64,000 nucleotides of DNA from a phage: the sequence record PV357172.2; one strand, 5' to 3'. The position numbers were made by a program, and so were the translations under genes. Below the pieces are notes generated by a model. The model saw only the letters and a list, made by a program, of their open reading frames with translations, did not search any database and was not told the DNA's origin. This document shows, one piece after another, positions 27,465 through 44,302 of this stretch. Each line of letters begins with the position of its first letter. Position 1 is the first letter of the stretch.

Positions 27465-27746
27465 ATGATTACAGAAATTCTCATTGGATTGCTAGTTCTT
27501 ACTACACTAGTAGCGATTGGCGGAGTTATTGGGATTGTGAATGCACGAAAAAGCATGGAAAATATGCTTATTACTAATGATGGACTACACCACCGTTTGC
27601 TAGAGCAAGAGCAGGATATTGAATTAGCACAAAGACGCTCGGATATTCTTAAGGAAAAATTAAATAATATAGAAGCAATAGTTGGGAATAATAAATTACC
27701 TGCTAAAGTAATGCGTACCCAGATAATCACGGAGATTAAAAAATGA
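27465..27746 (+). CDS. membrane-anchored coiled-coil protein (93 aa)
   Basis: N-terminal TM helix. Confidence 0.45.
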   Translation: MITEILIGLLVLTTLVAIGGVIGIVNARKSMENMLITNDGLHHRLLEQEQDIELAQRRSDILKEKLNNIEAIVGNNKLPAKVMRTQIITEIKK

Positions 27747-27988
27747 TGATGTTTATTCTAGCACTTTACCTAATCGTGGTGGGAGTTCTAGTTACTAAGT
27801 ATCACACATGGACACCAAAGAATATAGCTAAGGTAGCATTATTTGTTATTCCAGTACCACTTATTATCTTTTCTATGTTACTGGTGATGTTAATTGGTAG
27901 AGTAACAAAGACCGATGTTAAGCGCATTGCTGACGAATTGCAACAGTCCTGTGATATGATTGAGGATATTATTAAAGATGAAACTTAA
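27743..27988 (+). CDS. small membrane protein (81 aa)
   Basis: Two TM helices; overlaps the neighbouring gene. Confidence 0.45.
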   Translation: MMMFILALYLIVVGVLVTKYHTWTPKNIAKVALFVIPVPLIIFSMLLVMLIGRVTKTDVKRIADELQQSCDMIEDIIKDET

Positions 27989-28304
27989 TTTCAATGAGTT
28001 AAATACTTTGCATGAGCTGTTACAGTTTGTAAATAATAATATTAGTATTCCAGATGATACACTAGAAGTTCTCATGTTAATCGAGAAAAAGGTAGGGGTT
28101 GAAATTGAGGATTCTTGGAAACCACTTTCTACATTAACACCTCTTAATATGAAAGTGATTGTTAAAAATATTCATACTGGTGAAGAGTATGAAATGACTC
28201 GTAAAGAATTAGCTAACAGCTATTCACCAGAGTCTGTAGTGATGCACCATAGTGATACCCCTACGGTTCTACAGACAGCTAATTACGTATGGCGTCTCCC
28301 ATGA
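27978..28304 (+). CDS. hypothetical protein
   Basis: Internal ATG of track ORF 27960-28304. Confidence 0.4.
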   Translation: MKLNFNELNTLHELLQFVNNNISIPDDTLEVLMLIEKKVGVEIEDSWKPLSTLTPLNMKVIVKNIHTGEEYEMTRKELANSYSPESVVMHHSDTPTVLQTANYVWRLP

Positions 28305-28403
28305 TTGATTTAGTACCAATTACTGCGGGGCTAATAGCACTATTAGTGCTCACAGTTTTCATTATTGTGGAGCAGGCCAAAGTAATAAGGAGACTTAAAA
28401 ACA

Positions 28404-28604
28404 ATGATAAAACGTCTTGTTTATCAGGCACCAAAGATTGTAACTGAGTATTTTGTATTACTGCCTCAGATTGTATTTCTAACAGCGTTATTTAACATAC
28501 TTTTTCGACATCTAGGAATAACGGAAAATATATTCTATACTTCTGGGTTACTTCCTTTTATGTATGAAGGCATTATCATGGCAATTAACGGGGTTCGTAA
28601 ATGA
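28404..28604 (+). CDS. small membrane protein (66 aa)
   Basis: Hydrophobic core; GGAG SD. Confidence 0.4.
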   Translation: MIKRLVYQAPKIVTEYFVLLPQIVFLTALFNILFRHLGITENIFYTSGLLPFMYEGIIMAINGVRK

Positions 28605-30089: not shown

Positions 30090-30372
30090 CTATATTATAT
30101 GGTCAAATCCATTAGCAGCACTTAGTAACAAACTATTTAAAACAACGTGGGGGTATAATGAAATAGACTTAGGTAGTCGCCCAATACCAAACAAACACCC
30201 CTTAGTTCCAGAGCTGTATAGGGTAGTAATAAATGACACAGAGTATTTGGTTGATAAATTTGACAGAAAACGTTTACTAGAGGGTATCTACGATAATTCT
30301 ATATCGATAAATGAATTAGTAGAACATGCCCAAATATACGATAAGAGCTGGATGTTAATATGGAGATCATAG
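30082..30372 (+). CDS. hypothetical protein (96 aa)
   Basis: Track ORF. Confidence 0.45.
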   Translation: MSSYIIWSNPLAALSNKLFKTTWGYNEIDLGSRPIPNKHPLVPELYRVVINDTEYLVDKFDRKRLLEGIYDNSISINELVEHAQIYDKSWMLIWRS

Positions 30373-30593
30373 TAATTATTTTAGCAGTTATGTTATTTAT
30401 TGTAACATTAGTATCGTTTGCTATTATGCGCAGAGCTAAAGAACTAGCGGAAGATCTAACAAAATTACGCGGTGAGTTAGCTGCTCTTAAATTACAGCGT
30501 GAGGCTTTAAAGTTGTTTGTGGTTCAGGGTAGCGTAGAACATACAACGGAAGACTTCATCACGTATCTCAAACGTTACATGGGAATTAAATAA
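30360..30593 (+). CDS. membrane-anchored coiled-coil protein (77 aa)
   Basis: N-terminal TM helix. Confidence 0.45.
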   Translation: MEIIVIILAVMLFIVTLVSFAIMRRAKELAEDLTKLRGELAALKLQREALKLFVVQGSVEHTTEDFITYLKRYMGIK

Positions 30594-30778
30594 TGGAAAC
30601 TCTTTTTCTTTTAATGCTAGTAGGTTCCTTGCTAGTTATATTAGCACTTCTACTGATCTGCAATATTCTTAATAATAAGAATCTAGAGCTAAAGTGTGAA
30701 AACCAAATCCTTAATCGTGAACTTAAACAATATAACATAGCAGCGCACAAGCTACTAGACAAATTGGAGAATAAGTAA
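30593..30778 (+). CDS. membrane-anchored coiled-coil protein (61 aa)
   Basis: N-terminal TM helix; same architecture as the upstream ORF. Confidence 0.45.
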   Translation: METLFLLMLVGSLLVILALLLICNILNNKNLELKCENQILNRELKQYNIAAHKLLDKLENK

Positions 30779-42351: not shown

Positions 42352-42513
42352 TAATTAAAGTTGAAATAGTCACGGTGTGTAATGATAACATGCCGTGACT
42401 ATTAGCTTGCTAAGTACCGGGCGGTAATGAGACTCATTCTCATCTGGGGGGCCACTGCACCCACCCACGCGTACGTAATCCAAAGAATTTGGCAAAAGTC
42501 ATTTTAGTGCTAA

Positions 42514-43053
42514 TTAACTGTTTAATTGGGCAACGTCTGGTATACTTCCTTTGAACATCTCCTGTATTGCAAAGTCACCATGAAATGTCCTTCTTAGTAA
42601 ATTTGCATAATTTACGGCATCTTCTAATCCGCTATAGGGAAAGTACTTAGTAGTACCCCTTATCAGCCCCTGTTTATCATGTAATCTTACCATCCACTTC
42701 TGAAGTTCTTTATGCCATGTAACATTTAGATAGCCTGATGATGCTCTTGAGATTCTGCCATTATGATTATTCTCTGTAATTGAAGCCTCTCTTAAATTTG
42801 ACCATCTATTATTTAGTTTATTCCTATCTATGTGGTCTACACATTCCTCTGGCCATCTATTCTCCATAATAACAAAAGCTACTTGATGTGCATAAGCTTT
42901 AAACCCTCGATACTTAAGCTGCCTATATCCCCTATTTAAAGTACCTGCTTCTTTACCCTTACGATTGCCTCTTTTCCAGGTAAAAACTCCGGTTTCGGGA
43001 TCATAAGCAAATACTTCTTGTATTTCCTGTATGTTTAAATTATTCTTCATCAC
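42514..43053 (-). CDS. HNH homing endonuclease
   Basis: HQVAFVIMENRWPEECVDHIDRNKLNNRWSNLRE HNH motif. Confidence 0.75.
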   Translation of the reverse strand: MMKNNLNIQEIQEVFAYDPETGVFTWKRGNRKGKEAGTLNRGYRQLKYRGFKAYAHQVAFVIMENRWPEECVDHIDRNKLNNRWSNLREASITENNHNGRISRASSGYLNVTWHKELQKWMVRLHDKQGLIRGTTKYFPYSGLEDAVNYANLLRRTFHGDFAIQEMFKGSIPDVAQLNS

Positions 43054-43285
43054 TCACCTTTGCCCGAAATCTCTTCCGCGACGCCCGAGATCCATCCGAC
43101 CACTCCCGCTCAAACTCCGCACGTTTCTCGTCAAACTTCCGCTCCCTTTCCGCAATCTTCCGCTCCCTTTCCGCAATCTCCCGCGATACTTCCGCAGTAT
43201 ACTTACGATGCTTGTTAATAGCCGCAGTCATTCCGAAAACTCCCGCAAGTACCCCGATAATAAAAGCAATTATAATACTAAACAT
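43040..43285 (-). CDS. small membrane protein with charged repeat tail (81 aa)
   Basis: N-terminal TM helix then IAERERK repeated, encoded by a 21-bp tandem DNA repeat (about 43140-43185). Confidence 0.5.
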   Translation of the reverse strand: MFSIIIAFIIGVLAGVFGMTAAINKHRKYTAEVSREIAERERKIAERERKFDEKRAEFEREWSDGSRASRKRFRAKVSDEE

Positions 43286-43472
43286 CTAATTCCCTCTCAA
43301 TTTGCAGAATACGGGTACTATCACAACGTTGGAGTTCTACTAATTTTTCTAGAGCAAATTGTTGTTGTTTTACCTGAGCTTCTAGAGTTTTTAGGCGAAC
43401 ATACGCGTTATAAGAAACAATGAAAGTTGCCCAGACTAGTATTACTATTAGTGTAGCTACTACTTCCATCAT
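43278..43472 (-). CDS. TM plus coiled-coil small protein (64 aa), paralog family
   Basis: ATGATG start overlaps the upstream stop. Confidence 0.5.
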   Translation of the reverse strand: MMEVVATLIVILVWATFIVSYNAYVRLKTLEAQVKQQQFALEKLVELQRCDSTRILQIERELDV

Positions 43473-43576
43473 TTACGTTTCTCCGTTAGTAAAGTTTCAA
43501 TTCTAGCTAAGTGATTATCTAAAATACATTGCCCAATAATCATAATTCCCAGTAATGAAATAATTACCCATTCCAT
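43469..43576 (-). CDS. TM plus coiled-coil mini-protein (35 aa), paralog
   Basis: MEWVII...ARIETLLTEKRK, same N- and C-terminal signatures as the 61-aa neighbour; below track cutoff. Confidence 0.4.
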   Translation of the reverse strand: MEWVIISLLGIMIIGQCILDNHLARIETLLTEKRK

Positions 43577-43761
43577 TATTTACGCTCCTCTAATAAAGTT
43601 TCAATTCTAGATAACCTATTACTCAACTGCATTAATTTAACCTCTACTTGGGTTACAGAGGTATCTATTACACGTAAGCCTACAAAGAGAAGTATCAGTA
43701 GGATGAATATGCCAATAATTACCCATTCCATTAAATCCACCCCGCCATAGCTGCTAACCAA
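43576..43761 (-). CDS. TM plus coiled-coil small protein (61 aa), paralog
   Basis: ...MEWVIIGIFILLILL...RIETLLEERK. Confidence 0.5.
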   Translation of the reverse strand: MVSSYGGVDLMEWVIIGIFILLILLFVGLRVIDTSVTQVEVKLMQLSNRLSRIETLLEERK

Positions 43762-43922
43762 AAACCTACGAAGATTAGGAATAATACAAAACCAAATCCG
43801 TAAATATTAATCCACGCTTCGTACACTTCTCCGCGTCTGTTCTTTCTTTTGTTTGACATATCTTTCCTGCTCCTATAAATATAGTATTTGGAATATTTTA
43901 TAATTTGCGCATAGCCAACCAT
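43731..43922 (-). CDS. small protein with C-terminal TM helix (63 aa)
   Basis: Basic N-terminus, hydrophobic C-terminus; first gene of the minus-strand array. Confidence 0.45.
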   Translation of the reverse strand: MVGYAQIIKYSKYYIYRSRKDMSNKRKNRRGEVYEAWINIYGFGFVLFLIFVGFWLAAMAGWI

Positions 43923-44035
43923 GCTCGTGATTTCCTAGAAGGGCTTTTCACTTTCTTGCATAGTGTTTTCTGCTAGTACACCATCCAAGAAATAAAAAAT
44001 TTAGTTTACTTGGATGTCTTTTTGCTTTATACTAA

Positions 44036-44302
44036 TTACAAGTAATTAGATTGCTCTAGTTTAAATTTACAATCACCATATTTAAGGTCAAACTGACTGA
44101 GATCCCACCATCCAAACTTAGTACGGAGCTGTACTACTGGAAAGCGATCTCCCTTAATACGAACTTTTTGAACCTTGAGACCGTAATGTTCTTCTCCCTC
44201 ACCACCAAAAGATTTTACAAATCCAGTACAAAATGGTTTGGGAGCAGGTGCACAACCAGATAACATAACTGCGGCAACTAGTGTAATCACAAACTTTTTC
44301 AT
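44036..44302 (-). CDS. llp: Llp-like lipoprotein (receptor-blocking candidate)
   Basis: Signal peptide with lipobox LSGC; divergent from the RBP gene as llp is from oad in T5. Confidence 0.6.
   Translation of the reverse strand: MKKFVITLVAAVMLSGCAPAPKPFCTGFVKSFGGEGEEHYGLKVQKVRIKGDRFPVVQLRTKFGWWDLSQFDLKYGDCKFKLEQSNYL

What the first reader, a model, noticed from the sequence alone, without database searches (positions are those of the whole stretch)
43040..43922. Array of five overlapping small membrane-protein genes, several clearly paralogous
Five minus-strand ORFs (63, 61, 35, 64 and 81 aa) overlap start-to-stop. Three share an N-terminal MEWVII-type TM helix and a C-terminal coiled coil ending RIETLLEERK or similar; the last carries a 21-bp tandem repeat encoding IAERERK twice. 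The array lies between the HNH/Dmp genes and the receptor-blocking lipoprotein gene, near the predicted DNA terminus. Candidate functions are superinfection exclusion, membrane remodelling for DNA transfer, or anti-defence.
Basis: seen in the sequence. Interest (0 to 1): 0.65.

Follow-up and report, generated by a model that had tools for sequence, protein, structure and literature searches.

The report
T5 small inner-membrane protein gene array
These five tiny overlapping genes are real and conserved, but they are the long-annotated, still uncharacterised single-transmembrane gene cluster T5.159–T5.162 of T5-like phages, here with one extra duplicated gene and a unique 7-codon duplication, so the find is an ordinary member of a known cluster whose function is still open.

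Summary
The window comes from a T5-like phage (Tequintavirus). The flagged array exists on the minus strand and matches T5 genes T5.159, T5.160, T5.161 and T5.162, which the T5 record already annotates as "contains single transmembrane domain". The window has one extra paralogue of T5.160.

- **Gene lengths.** The real lengths are 42, 51, 35, 64 and 81 aa.
- **Coding status.** All five have Shine-Dalgarno sites and stop/start overlaps. All are under purifying selection in the annotated frame (dN/dS 0.12–0.38).
- **Paralogy.** Only two genes (o2 and o3) are clear paralogues. The link to o4 is weak.
- **The 21-bp duplication.** It is real, and I found it in no other phage.
- **Distribution.** o1, o3 and o5 occur in about 425–444 phage records, essentially every close T5 relative. 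o4 occurs in 315 and o2 in 38.
- **Homologues.** No homologue of known function was found. A profile search of 1.84 billion proteins returned only the same family.
- **Architecture.** Each protein is a single-pass inner-membrane helix. In o2–o5 this is followed by a helical tail predicted to be cytoplasmic.
- **Position.** They lie downstream of llp and are the last unique genes to enter the cell.

My best guess is a co-produced inner-membrane complex that gives receptor-independent superinfection exclusion or envelope protection. I put this at about 0.3; it is inferred, not shown. Interest is low to moderate.

The parts
43731..43859 (-). o1 = T5.159 homologue, 42 aa. It has a basic cytoplasmic N-terminus (MSNKRKNRRGEV) and a C-terminal TM helix ending ...GFWLAAMAGWI. 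The 63-aa reading from 43922 is an unsupported extension.
   Evidence: ORF. SD AGGAG and a conserved start. PHROG 8596, E 6e-31. dN/dS 0.12 across 26 unique sequences. Found in 442 phage records.
43576..43731 (-). o2, 51 aa. An extra paralogue of T5.160 that T5 itself lacks. N-terminal TM (MEWVIIGIFILLILLFVGL) followed by a three-heptad helix ending RIETLLEERK.
   Evidence: PHROG 6369, E 1.4e-14. hhalign to o3 95.5%. Flanked by 20-nt perfect direct repeats. dN/dS 0.27. Present in only 38 phage records and 6 protein clusters.
43469..43576 (-). o3 = T5.160 homologue, 35 aa. N-terminal TM plus a 16-aa amphipathic tail (DNHLARIETLLTEKRK).
   Evidence: PHROG 6369, E 1e-24. T5 annotation. dN/dS 0.21. 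Found in 425 phage records.
43278..43472 (-). o4 = T5.161 homologue, 64 aa. N-terminal TM plus a continuous heptad-patterned helix ending RILQIERELDV. An accessory member of the array.
   Evidence: PHROG 5851, E 2.8e-35. dN/dS 0.33–0.38. AF2 model is a single helix, residues 2–63, pLDDT 85. Found in 315 phage records. Absent through a precise ATG-to-ATG indel in several loci and truncated in L005 and MET_P1_100_107.
43040..43285 (-). o5 = T5.162 homologue, 81 aa. N-terminal TM with invariant G11xxxG15xxG18, then a long highly charged helix with the conserved motif EFEREWSDGSR.SR.RF. The C-terminal tail AKVSDEE was created by the HNH insertion.
   Evidence: PHROG 6447, E 1.6e-39. dN/dS 0.23–0.34. 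Invariant columns. AF2 model is a single helix, residues 2–80, pLDDT 82. Found in 444 phage records. The profile search found only its own family.
43132..43173 (-). 21-bp tandem duplication inside o5. It is in frame and adds a second IAERERK. It is private to this phage.
   Evidence: TRF and the repeat finder. Single copy in all 25 other o5 sequences aligned and in the 82 protein clusters. All full-length megablast matches span 230 nt rather than 251 nt. No exact 42-mer in IMG/VR.
43559..43733 (-). Two 20-nt perfect direct repeats (43559–43578 and 43714–43733) covering the stop/start junction TAATGGAATGGGTAATTATT of o2 and o3. They mark the boundaries of the o2 duplication.
   Evidence: the repeat finder family D4, and the 37-nt 81% repeat D1 at the 3' ends.
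43860..44035 (-). llp–o1 intergenic region. It holds a modest conserved hairpin (about 43982..44016) with no U-run after it, and no convincing promoter. It also contains a decayed remnant of an extra ORF.
   Evidence: Alignment of 25 loci. Fold energy −12.4 kcal/mol, z −1.9. The promoter and terminator scan was not above shuffles.
44036..44302 (-). llp, the BF23-type receptor-blocking lipoprotein. It is the upstream neighbour on the same strand.
   Evidence: PHROG 1119, Cor superinfection exclusion, E 2.2e-26. Lipobox LSGC. The BF23 llp primer matches MKKFVIALVA.
42514..43053 (-). HNH homing endonuclease. Its start overlaps the o5 stop. It is inserted between o5 and the terminal repeat and replaced the last ~15 codons of o5.
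   Evidence: PHROG 99, E 7e-52. A blastn breakpoint at window 42511–43064 relative to Kenya-K15. The same AKVSDEE tail occurs in other HNH-bearing phages.

Best explanation
**What it is (confidence about 0.9).** The array is the T5.159–T5.162 cluster of T5-like phages, with one extra copy of the T5.160 gene. It consists of five translationally coupled genes for very small single-pass inner-membrane proteins.
- o1 is tail-anchored, with a basic N-terminus in the cytoplasm.
- o2 to o5 expose only 0–3 residues to the periplasm. Each has one TM helix and carries an alpha-helical, heptad-patterned or highly charged tail on the cytoplasmic side.

**How it most likely works (inferred, confidence about 0.3).** The proteins are made together, on the same strand as llp and probably on one transcript with it, once the whole genome has entered. 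They associate through their TM helices, which carry conserved small-residue motifs, and through their cytoplasmic helices. Together they form an inner-membrane complex that protects the infected cell envelope independently of the receptor. The most likely protective effect is to prevent a second T5-like phage from passing its DNA through the inner membrane. That would complement the outer-membrane receptor block by Llp.

Their position as the last unique genes to enter would ensure that this block cannot act on the phage's own DNA.

**Shown:** the genes are real, conserved, membrane-anchored and coupled; they are transcribed only after second-step transfer; and they are independent of receptor type.

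**Inferred:** the topology, formation of a complex, and the exclusion function.
For: **Identity.** Synteny and homology to T5.159–162, annotated as single-TM proteins. PHROG matches at E 1e-14 to 1e-39.

**Real genes.**
- dN/dS of 0.12–0.38, comparable to llp at 0.32, and lowest in the annotated frame.
- SD sites before every start, and 1-, 1-, 4- and 8-nt stop/start overlaps.
- Indels of whole genes fall exactly at gene boundaries and keep the coupling intact.

**Membrane architecture.**
- Hydrophobic segments and flanking charges: o1 has an N-flank of +5, and o2–o5 have no positive charge before the TM and 2–4 after it.
- Single long helices in AF2 models.
- Invariant G11/G15/G18 in o5 and the invariant GFWLAAMAGW in o1.

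**Expression.** In Bas33 at 20 min: llp 219/127 TPM, o2 162/137, o4 462/408, o5 22/13. Reads are 0, or a single read, when infection is blocked by daunorubicin.

**Independence from the receptor module.**
- T5 (FhuA-type Llp) and BF23-type phages share the same array.
- Homology resumes about 25 nt upstream of the o1 start.

**Last to enter.** DNA enters left end first. T5.162 ends 42 bp before the right terminal repeat.

**Clade-wide retention.** o1 and o5 occur in 442 and 444 records, against 444 records with TerL at 90% identity or more.

**Accessory, fast-changing content typical of host- or competitor-interaction modules.** o4 occurs in 315 records and o2 in 38. o5 shows tail variants and in-frame indels.
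Against: - No experiment or homology links these proteins to exclusion. Pfam, NCBIfam, PADLOC and PDB sequence searches gave nothing above threshold.
- A profile search of 1.84 billion proteins found only the family itself.
- No paper mentions the genes.
- Topology rests only on the positive-inside rule. Complex formation was not modelled.
- Co-transcription with llp is not shown. No promoter or terminator could be assigned. The per-gene RNA-seq counts are very uneven: o1 and o3 are near 1 TPM. This is probably a counting artefact for 108–129-nt overlapping genes, but that is unproven.
- Llp alone is known to exclude superinfection, so a second layer is not required.
- Adjacency to llp may be incidental. 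Similar small TM plus coiled-coil genes of unknown function occur elsewhere in the same genome.
Confidence: 0.3

Rival explanations
1. The five proteins act separately as small modulators of host inner-membrane proteins. Targets could be transporters, proteases such as FtsH, division or envelope-biogenesis factors, or membrane-bound defence sensors. This would be host takeover or anti-defence rather than exclusion.
For: - The architecture resembles bacterial bitopic regulators. Sub-threshold Pfam similarities are LapA_dom (23.5 bits against a cutoff of 28, seen in 17 of 20 family members), ZapG-like, and DivIC/FtsL.
- Variable gene content and orphan status are typical of counter-defence genes.
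- The genome holds other unrelated small TM plus coiled-coil genes, which suggests a general strategy.
Against: - All the similarities are below the curated thresholds and can be explained by TM plus charged-helix composition.
- The deep profile search found no LapA-like relatives.
- PADLOC gave nothing.
- Tight translational coupling and co-retention of o1, o3 and o5 in about 425–444 genomes fit subunits of one unit better than independent effectors.
Confidence: 0.25
2. The proteins maintain or control the inner membrane during the phage's own cycle. They could reseal or repolarise the membrane after the tail-tip channel has delivered the DNA, or tune holin triggering and lysis timing in an antiholin-like way.
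For: - They are small single-pass proteins with oligomerisation-type TM motifs.
- They are expressed only once the genome is fully inside.
- A weak PHROG hit of the Klebsiella-phage positional analogue to an Rz-like spanin, E 0.0034.
Against: - T5-like phages already have a separate lysis cassette with holin, endolysin and both spanins.
- None of the five matches any holin, spanin or lysis PHROG or Pfam family.
- The predicted orientation of o2–o5 puts the coiled coils in the cytoplasm, unlike i-spanins.
- No lipoprotein partner is embedded in or overlaps the array.
Confidence: 0.15
3. The proteins anchor phage DNA or the replication or packaging machinery to the membrane, using the charged tail of o5. 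Their position next to the terminal-repeat boundary would then reflect a cis-linked role.
For: - o5 ends 42–54 bp from the terminal repeat in T5 and Kenya-K15.
- Its tail is highly charged (+19/−15) with a conserved basic end, SR.SR.RF.
Against: - There is no DNA-binding or terminase-related homology.
- The extreme C-terminus is freely replaced by HNH insertion and recombination, giving five different tails.
- Vibrio and Proteus T5-like phages, which have the same genome ends, lack such genes.
Confidence: 0.07
4. The GenBank labels are correct: o4 is a tail assembly protein, o3 a tail fiber protein and o1 a receptor-blocking protein.
For: These names appear in several deposited records and in UniRef.
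Against: - T5 and most other records call them hypothetical or membrane proteins.
- No Pfam, PHROG or NCBIfam tail family matches.
- Proteins of 35–64 aa with one TM helix are not credible fibres or chaperones.
- The names look like labels propagated from neighbouring genes (pb5, llp).
Confidence: 0.03

Closest known systems
Phage T5 genes T5.159, T5.160, T5.161 and T5.162 (NC_005859 / AY543070, 110826–111490)
   Same: Same order, strand, overlaps and position between llp and the right terminal repeat. The sequences are homologous, falling in PHROGs 8596, 6369, 5851 and 6447. The T5 record already notes "contains single transmembrane domain".
   Different: - The window has an extra gene, o2, a longer paralogue of T5.160 that T5 lacks.
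- It has a private 21-bp duplication in o5.
- A downstream HNH insertion rewrote the o5 C-terminus.
- Its upstream llp is BF23-type, not FhuA-type.
Escherichia phage HildyBeyeler (Bas33) genes bas33_0187–0191, and Salmonella phage MET_P1_100_107
   Same: Both carry the same five-gene version including o2. HildyBeyeler also has the HNH gene. DNA identity is 93–98%. Bas33 RNA-seq shows the genes are transcribed.
   Different: Neither has the 21-bp duplication. In MET_P1_100_107 the o4 gene is truncated to 45 aa.
T4 Imm and Sp, P22 SieA: inner-membrane or periplasmic superinfection-exclusion proteins (comparison from general knowledge)
   Same: Small phage-encoded membrane proteins made soon after infection that act on the envelope. 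This is the functional model proposed here.
   Different: There is no sequence similarity: nothing appears in Pfam at E up to 10. The sizes and topology differ, and no exclusion phenotype is known for the T5 proteins.
Llp / Cor receptor-blocking lipoproteins (PHROG 1119)
   Same: Encoded immediately upstream on the same strand, with similar transcript levels.
   Different: Llp is an outer-membrane lipoprotein acting in the periplasm. The o proteins have no lipobox and almost no periplasmic residues, so direct contact with Llp is unlikely. Llp swaps together with the receptor-binding protein, while the array does not.
Bacterial bitopic TM plus cytoplasmic or coiled-coil helix proteins: LapA domain (PF06305), YhcB/ZapG, FtsB/FtsL/DivIC
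   Same: The architecture is one TM helix followed by a charged or heptad helix. LapA_dom gives recurrent sub-threshold hits to o5.
   Different: Scores are below the gathering thresholds. The profile search of 1.84 billion proteins did not connect the families. FtsB/FtsL coiled coils are periplasmic.
Positional analogues in other Demerecviridae: Pectobacterium phage My1 gene My1_149, and Klebsiella phage Roth49 74-aa and 153-aa ORFs
   Same: N-terminal TM plus coiled-coil proteins. My1_149 is the last gene before the My1 right terminal repeat. The Roth49 ORFs lie just after the receptor-binding protein gene, at the end of the record. My1_149 aligns to o4 over 56 columns at 32% identity.
   Different: Statistical support is weak: hhalign 41.7% and 24%. 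There is no similarity for the o5 analogue. Vibrio JSF10 and Proteus RP7 have no such genes at this position.

Membership tests
T5.159–T5.162 cluster of Markadamsvirinae (PHROGs 8596 / 6369 / 5851 / 6447) | Sequence homology of each ORF to the corresponding T5 protein family | tested here: met
   PHROG E-values are 6e-31 (o1), 1.4e-14 (o2), 1e-24 (o3), 2.8e-35 (o4) and 1.6e-39 (o5). Alignments with the T5 proteins.
T5.159–T5.162 cluster of Markadamsvirinae (PHROGs 8596 / 6369 / 5851 / 6447) | Synteny: same strand as llp, downstream of it, immediately before the right terminal repeat, with genes abutting or overlapping | tested here: met
   Annotated regions of HildyBeyeler, Kenya-K15 and T5. 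Gene order in 26 fetched loci. Boundary mapping.
T5.159–T5.162 cluster of Markadamsvirinae (PHROGs 8596 / 6369 / 5851 / 6447) | One transmembrane segment per protein | tested here: met
   Hydropathy windows of 2.4–3.2. Matches the T5 annotation notes.
Superinfection-exclusion proteins (Imm / Sp / Sie / Cor types) | Sequence or profile similarity to a characterised exclusion protein | tested here: not met
   No Pfam, PHROG, NCBIfam or PADLOC family of this kind matched o1–o5. Only the neighbouring llp matches Cor.
Superinfection-exclusion proteins (Imm / Sp / Sie / Cor types) | Expression of the gene(s) blocks infection or DNA entry by a second phage | not testable with these tools
   This needs plating and DNA-entry assays. 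No published test was found.
Phage lysis proteins (holin / antiholin / i-spanin) | Location in the lysis cassette, or homology to a holin or spanin family | tested here: not met
   The T5-type lysis cassette, with holin, endolysin and both spanins, is described as a separate unit. o1–o5 have no lysis PHROG or Pfam hit.
Phage lysis proteins (holin / antiholin / i-spanin) | i-spanin topology: N-in, with a periplasmic coiled coil and a partner outer-membrane lipoprotein | tested here: inconclusive
   Charge distribution predicts N-out/C-in for o2–o5, but no experimental topology exists. The only nearby lipoprotein, Llp, has a known different role.
LapA domain (Pfam PF06305) | Score at or above the Pfam gathering threshold of 28 bits | tested here: not met
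   o5 scores 23.5 bits, E 5.2e-5. 17 of 20 family members match at E ≤ 0.1, and the best of them reaches only E 5.2e-05, i.e. 23.5 bits against the 28-bit cutoff. The profile search found no LapA-like proteins.
Tail assembly / tail fiber proteins (labels in some GenBank records) | Homology to a tail assembly or fibre family, or presence in virions | tested here: not met
   No such family was hit. Virion presence was not tested here.

The most novel reading that the evidence does not exclude
The core proteins o1, o3 and o5, with o4 and o2 as optional subunits, assemble into a phage-made inner-membrane complex. This complex closes the cytoplasmic membrane to T5-type DNA translocation whatever outer-membrane receptor the second phage uses. 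Its timing is set purely by genome geometry. Because these are the last unique genes to enter, the gate can shut only after the phage's own DNA is completely inside.

This would be a new, sequence-orphan class of exclusion system. It would also explain why llp and the array sit at the distal genome end in every close T5 relative.
Probability: 0.2. Interest if true: 0.6.

Novelty: already known. Interest (0 to 1): 0.3.

Why it matters
T5 is a classical model phage, and T5-like phages are widely used in biocontrol cocktails. About 440 sequenced relatives keep this small membrane-protein cluster next to the receptor-blocking gene, yet I found no paper in the searchable literature that assigns it a function.

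If it proved to be a second, receptor-independent layer of superinfection exclusion, or a membrane-level counter-defence, two things would follow. It would affect how T5-like phages can be combined in cocktails. It would also add a new family of very small membrane effectors.

As it stands, the window adds only a minor variant of a catalogued cluster: an extra paralogue, a private 7-aa duplication and an HNH-remodelled tail.

Tried and rejected
**Searches that found nothing useful**
- Pfam, NCBIfam and PADLOC scans of all five proteins gave nothing above threshold.
- A PDB sequence-profile search with the o5 profile gave only coiled-coil noise.
- The profile search with the o5 alignment against 1.84 billion representatives returned five hits, all from the same family.
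- Word-indexed searches with o5, o4 and o2 returned only sequences from T5-like phages.
- Fold search was not attempted, because both AF2 models are single helices.
- Literature searches for T5.159–162, T5p157–162, T5 RNA-seq and Tequintavirus exclusion found no functional study. Readings of the BF23, DT57C, phiR2-01, AKFV33 and Cit2 papers also found none.

**Readings considered and rejected**
- The 130-aa plus-strand ORF at 43031..43423 is not the real gene. The sense frame has the lower dN/dS, and the antisense frames carry stops across o4 in relatives.
- A spanin or holin role.
- Paralogy between o4 and o2/o3 is only weak.
- An o3–o4 fusion origin for the short o3 variant. The DNA instead shows a clean whole-gene indel.

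**Inconclusive**
- Promoter and terminator assignment in the llp–o1 spacer. The scan was not above shuffles and the hairpin z-score is −1.9.
Full report
**1. What is there**

The window belongs to a T5-like phage. The 2-kb region around the finding matches 339 phage records. The most complete match is Escherichia phage HildyBeyeler (Bas33) at 93% over 97% of the query.

Five consecutive minus-strand ORFs lie at 43040..43922. I call them o1 to o5 in the direction of transcription.

- o1 starts at the ATG of MSNKRK (43859, 42 aa). This start is preceded by AGGAG and is conserved in every relative.
- The 21-codon extension up to 43922 has no SD site. It is a decayed remnant of an extra ORF seen intact in only some relatives.
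- o2 starts at the ATG of MEWVII (43731, 51 aa).
- o3, o4 and o5 are 35, 64 and 81 aa.

Every start has an SD-like motif. Neighbouring genes overlap by 1, 1, 4 and 8 nt, and o5 overlaps the start of the downstream HNH gene.

**2. Identity**

The T5 reference record annotates the same four genes between llp (T5.158) and the right terminal repeat:
- T5.159 (42 aa) corresponds to o1.
- T5.160 (35 aa) corresponds to o3.
- T5.161 (64 aa) corresponds to o4.
- T5.162 (81 aa) corresponds to o5.

The PHROG assignments are:

| Gene | PHROG | Function in PHROGs |
|---|---|---|
| o1 | 8596 | unknown |
| o2 and o3 | 6369 | unknown |
| o4 | 5851 | unknown |
| o5 | 6447 | generic "membrane protein" |

T5 lacks o2. 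HildyBeyeler, Kenya-K15 and a few other phages have it.

**3. Are they genes?**

Yes. In the 26 fetched loci the order is constant. Pairwise Nei-Gojobori dN/dS values are:

| Gene | dN/dS |
|---|---|
| o1 | 0.12 |
| o2 | 0.27 |
| o3 | 0.21 |
| o4 | 0.38 |
| o5 | 0.34 |
| llp | 0.32 |

In a six-frame control, the annotated frame has the lowest value for o1, o4 and o5.

A 130-aa ORF on the opposite strand is a by-product of the charged-residue codon usage of o5. It is not supported: the antisense frames have higher dN/dS than the sense frame and carry stops across o4.

RNA-seq for Bas33 at 20 min after infection (PMC13250531, Dataset S1) gives, for the two replicates:

| Gene | TPM, replicate 1 | TPM, replicate 2 |
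|---|---|---|
| llp | 219 | 127 |
| o2 | 162 | 137 |
| o4 | 462 | 408 |
| o5 | 22 | 13 |
| HNH | 525 | 444 |
| o1 | about 1 | about 1 |
| o3 | about 1 | about 1 |

Reads are essentially absent (0 or 1 per replicate) when daunorubicin blocks infection and mainly pre-early products are made. The near-zero values for the 129- and 108-nt genes are probably read-assignment artefacts, but this is not proven.

**4. Paralogy and the repeat**

o2 and o3 are clear paralogues:
- both fall in the same PHROG;
- hhalign gives 95.5%, E 1.4e-8;
- a perfect 20-nt repeat lies at their starts and an 81% 37-nt repeat at their ends.

For TM plus coiled-coil sequences that is not convincing.

The 21-bp tandem duplication in o5 is real, but it is private to this phage.
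- All 25 other o5 sequences aligned and the 82 protein clusters carry a single IAERERK.
- Every full-length megablast match spans 230 nt rather than 251 nt.
- The 42-mer is absent from IMG/VR.

Other in-frame slips occur in the same charged helix elsewhere, including an AEKR duplication and 17–24-residue deletions. That segment therefore tolerates changes in length.

**5. Distribution and plasticity**

tblastn against 50,697 phage records gives:

| Gene | Phage records |
|---|---|
| o5 | 444 |
| o1 | 442 |
| o3 | 425 |
| o4 | 315 |
| o2 | 38 |

All hits are enterobacterial T5-like phages. The number of records whose large terminase is at least 90% identical is also 444. So o1, o3 and o5 form a clade-wide core, and o4 and o2 are accessory.

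- o4 is gained or lost by a clean indel from its ATG to the ATG of o5.
- o4 is truncated in two phages.
- The o5 C-terminal tail exists in at least five versions. In this window and in other HNH-bearing phages, the homing-endonuclease insertion (window 42511–43064) replaced the last ~15 codons with AKVSDEE.

The llp and receptor-binding cassette differs between T5 (FhuA type) and this window (BF23/BtuB type). Homology resumes about 25 nt before the o1 start, so the array is not part of the receptor module.

**6. Protein features**

- **o1** has a basic N-terminus (+5) and a TM helix that runs to the C-terminus. It ends in the invariant GFWLAAMAGW.
- **o2 to o5** have no positive charge before the TM helix and 2–4 after it. 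This predicts N-out/C-in.
- **o2 and o4** have regular 3-4 hydrophobic spacing in their tails, read directly from the sequence.
- **o5** has invariant G11, G15 and G18 in the TM helix. It also has a conserved EFEREWSDGSR.SR.RF motif.
- **AF2 models** of o5 and o4 are single continuous helices, pLDDT 82 and 85.

**7. Search for function**

Nothing above threshold turned up in Pfam, NCBIfam, PADLOC or PDB sequences.

o5 gives a recurrent sub-threshold match to the LapA domain: 23.5 bits against a 28-bit cutoff, in 17 of 20 members. A profile search of 1.84 billion representatives returned only five proteins, all of the same family. I therefore treat the LapA resemblance as architectural only.

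The labels "tail assembly protein", "tail fiber protein" and "receptor blocking protein" found in some records have no support.

T5-like phages have a separate lysis cassette with holin, endolysin and both spanins. No paper in the searchable library mentions these genes.

**8. Interpretation**

These points are established:
- The proteins are real, conserved, co-produced and inner-membrane anchored.
- They are encoded just downstream of llp.
- They are independent of receptor type.
- They are transcribed only after second-step transfer.
- They are the last unique genes to enter a cell, because entry starts from the left end.

From this I infer, at about 0.3, a hetero-oligomeric inner-membrane complex that provides receptor-independent exclusion or envelope protection, complementing Llp.

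The rivals are:
- independent modulators of host membrane proteins, or anti-defence (0.25);
- membrane resealing or lysis-timing control (0.15);
- a DNA or packaging anchor (0.07);
- a tail-related role (0.03).

One weak lead remains. A published llp clone that ended exactly at the o1 start gave only a 100-fold reduction in plating efficiency, against more than 10^6-fold in an earlier study. The authors could not explain the difference. Expression levels differed between the studies, so this is not evidence.

**9. Verdict**

However, the cluster has been annotated since the T5 genome was published, and the window's peculiarities are minor. The biological question of what this universally retained cluster does is open and easy to test experimentally. 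Nothing found here points to a specific new mechanism. Novelty: already known. Interest: 0.3.

Noticed in passing
window 42511-43064 (HNH gene 42514..43053): A homing-endonuclease gene is inserted between o5 and the terminal-repeat boundary (about 42449). It replaced the last ~15 codons of o5, giving the tail AKVSDEE. The same junction occurs in NR01, GEC_vB_N3, JLBYU43 and others. In locus L020 a similar HNH gene sits instead between llp and o1.
   Followed up: partly
window 43860-43922; loci L029 2323-2637, L022, L003: There is a remnant of an additional acidic ORF between llp and o1. It is intact, about 104 aa, in L029. It is fragmented in L022, in T5 and in this window, where it creates the spurious 63-aa reading of o1.
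   Followed up: partly
window 27465..27746, 27743..27988, 28289..28447, 30360..30593, 30593..30778 (all + strand): A second set of small ORFs lies in the early region. Four have an N-terminal TM helix followed by a coiled coil, and 27743..27988 has two TM helices. Four have PHROG assignments (4984, 4804, 6021, 5799), all of unknown function; 28289..28447 matches none. Two of them overlap stop-to-start. The o4 profile hits three of them weakly (28289..28447, 30360..30593, 30593..30778; E 0.002–0.15 among 596 ORFs).
   Followed up: partly
L032 1401-1712 (Pectobacterium phage My1, My1_149); L033 2733-2957 and 2961-3422 (Klebsiella phage Roth49): More distant Demerecviridae also encode N-terminal TM plus coiled-coil proteins at this end of the genome: in My1 as the last gene before the right terminal repeat, in Roth49 just after the receptor-binding protein gene. 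My1_149 aligns to o4 at 32% identity over 56 columns (hhalign 41.7%). Vibrio JSF10 and Proteus RP7 have no such genes there.
   Followed up: partly
GenBank records of relatives (e.g. OSYSP, SP15, GEC_vB_N3, SP01, MET_P1_100_107): Homologues of o4, o3 and o1 are labelled "tail assembly protein", "tail fiber protein" and "receptor blocking protein" in several records and in UniRef. No supporting homology exists. These look like propagated annotation errors.
   Followed up: yes
protein clusters P0061, P0068, P0082; locus L030 3046-3213: The charged helix and part of the TM segment of o5 show other in-frame changes in relatives. These include an AEKR duplication, 17–24-residue deletions and 55–57-aa short forms. 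The region seems prone to slippage and may be partly dispensable.
   Followed up: no
PMC4728585 (methods and section 3.2.1): The published DT57C llp clone ends exactly at the o1 start codon, so it excludes the array. It gave only a ~100-fold reduction in plating efficiency, against more than 10^6-fold reported earlier for BF23 llp. The authors could not explain the gap. Whether the earlier clone carried downstream genes could not be checked.
   Followed up: no
PMC13250531 Dataset S1 (Bas33 RNA-seq): Within what should be one operon, o1 and o3 have about 1 TPM while their neighbours have 13–460 TPM. This is probably an artefact of read assignment for very short overlapping genes, and for the o2/o3 repeat, but it is unverified.
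   Followed up: no
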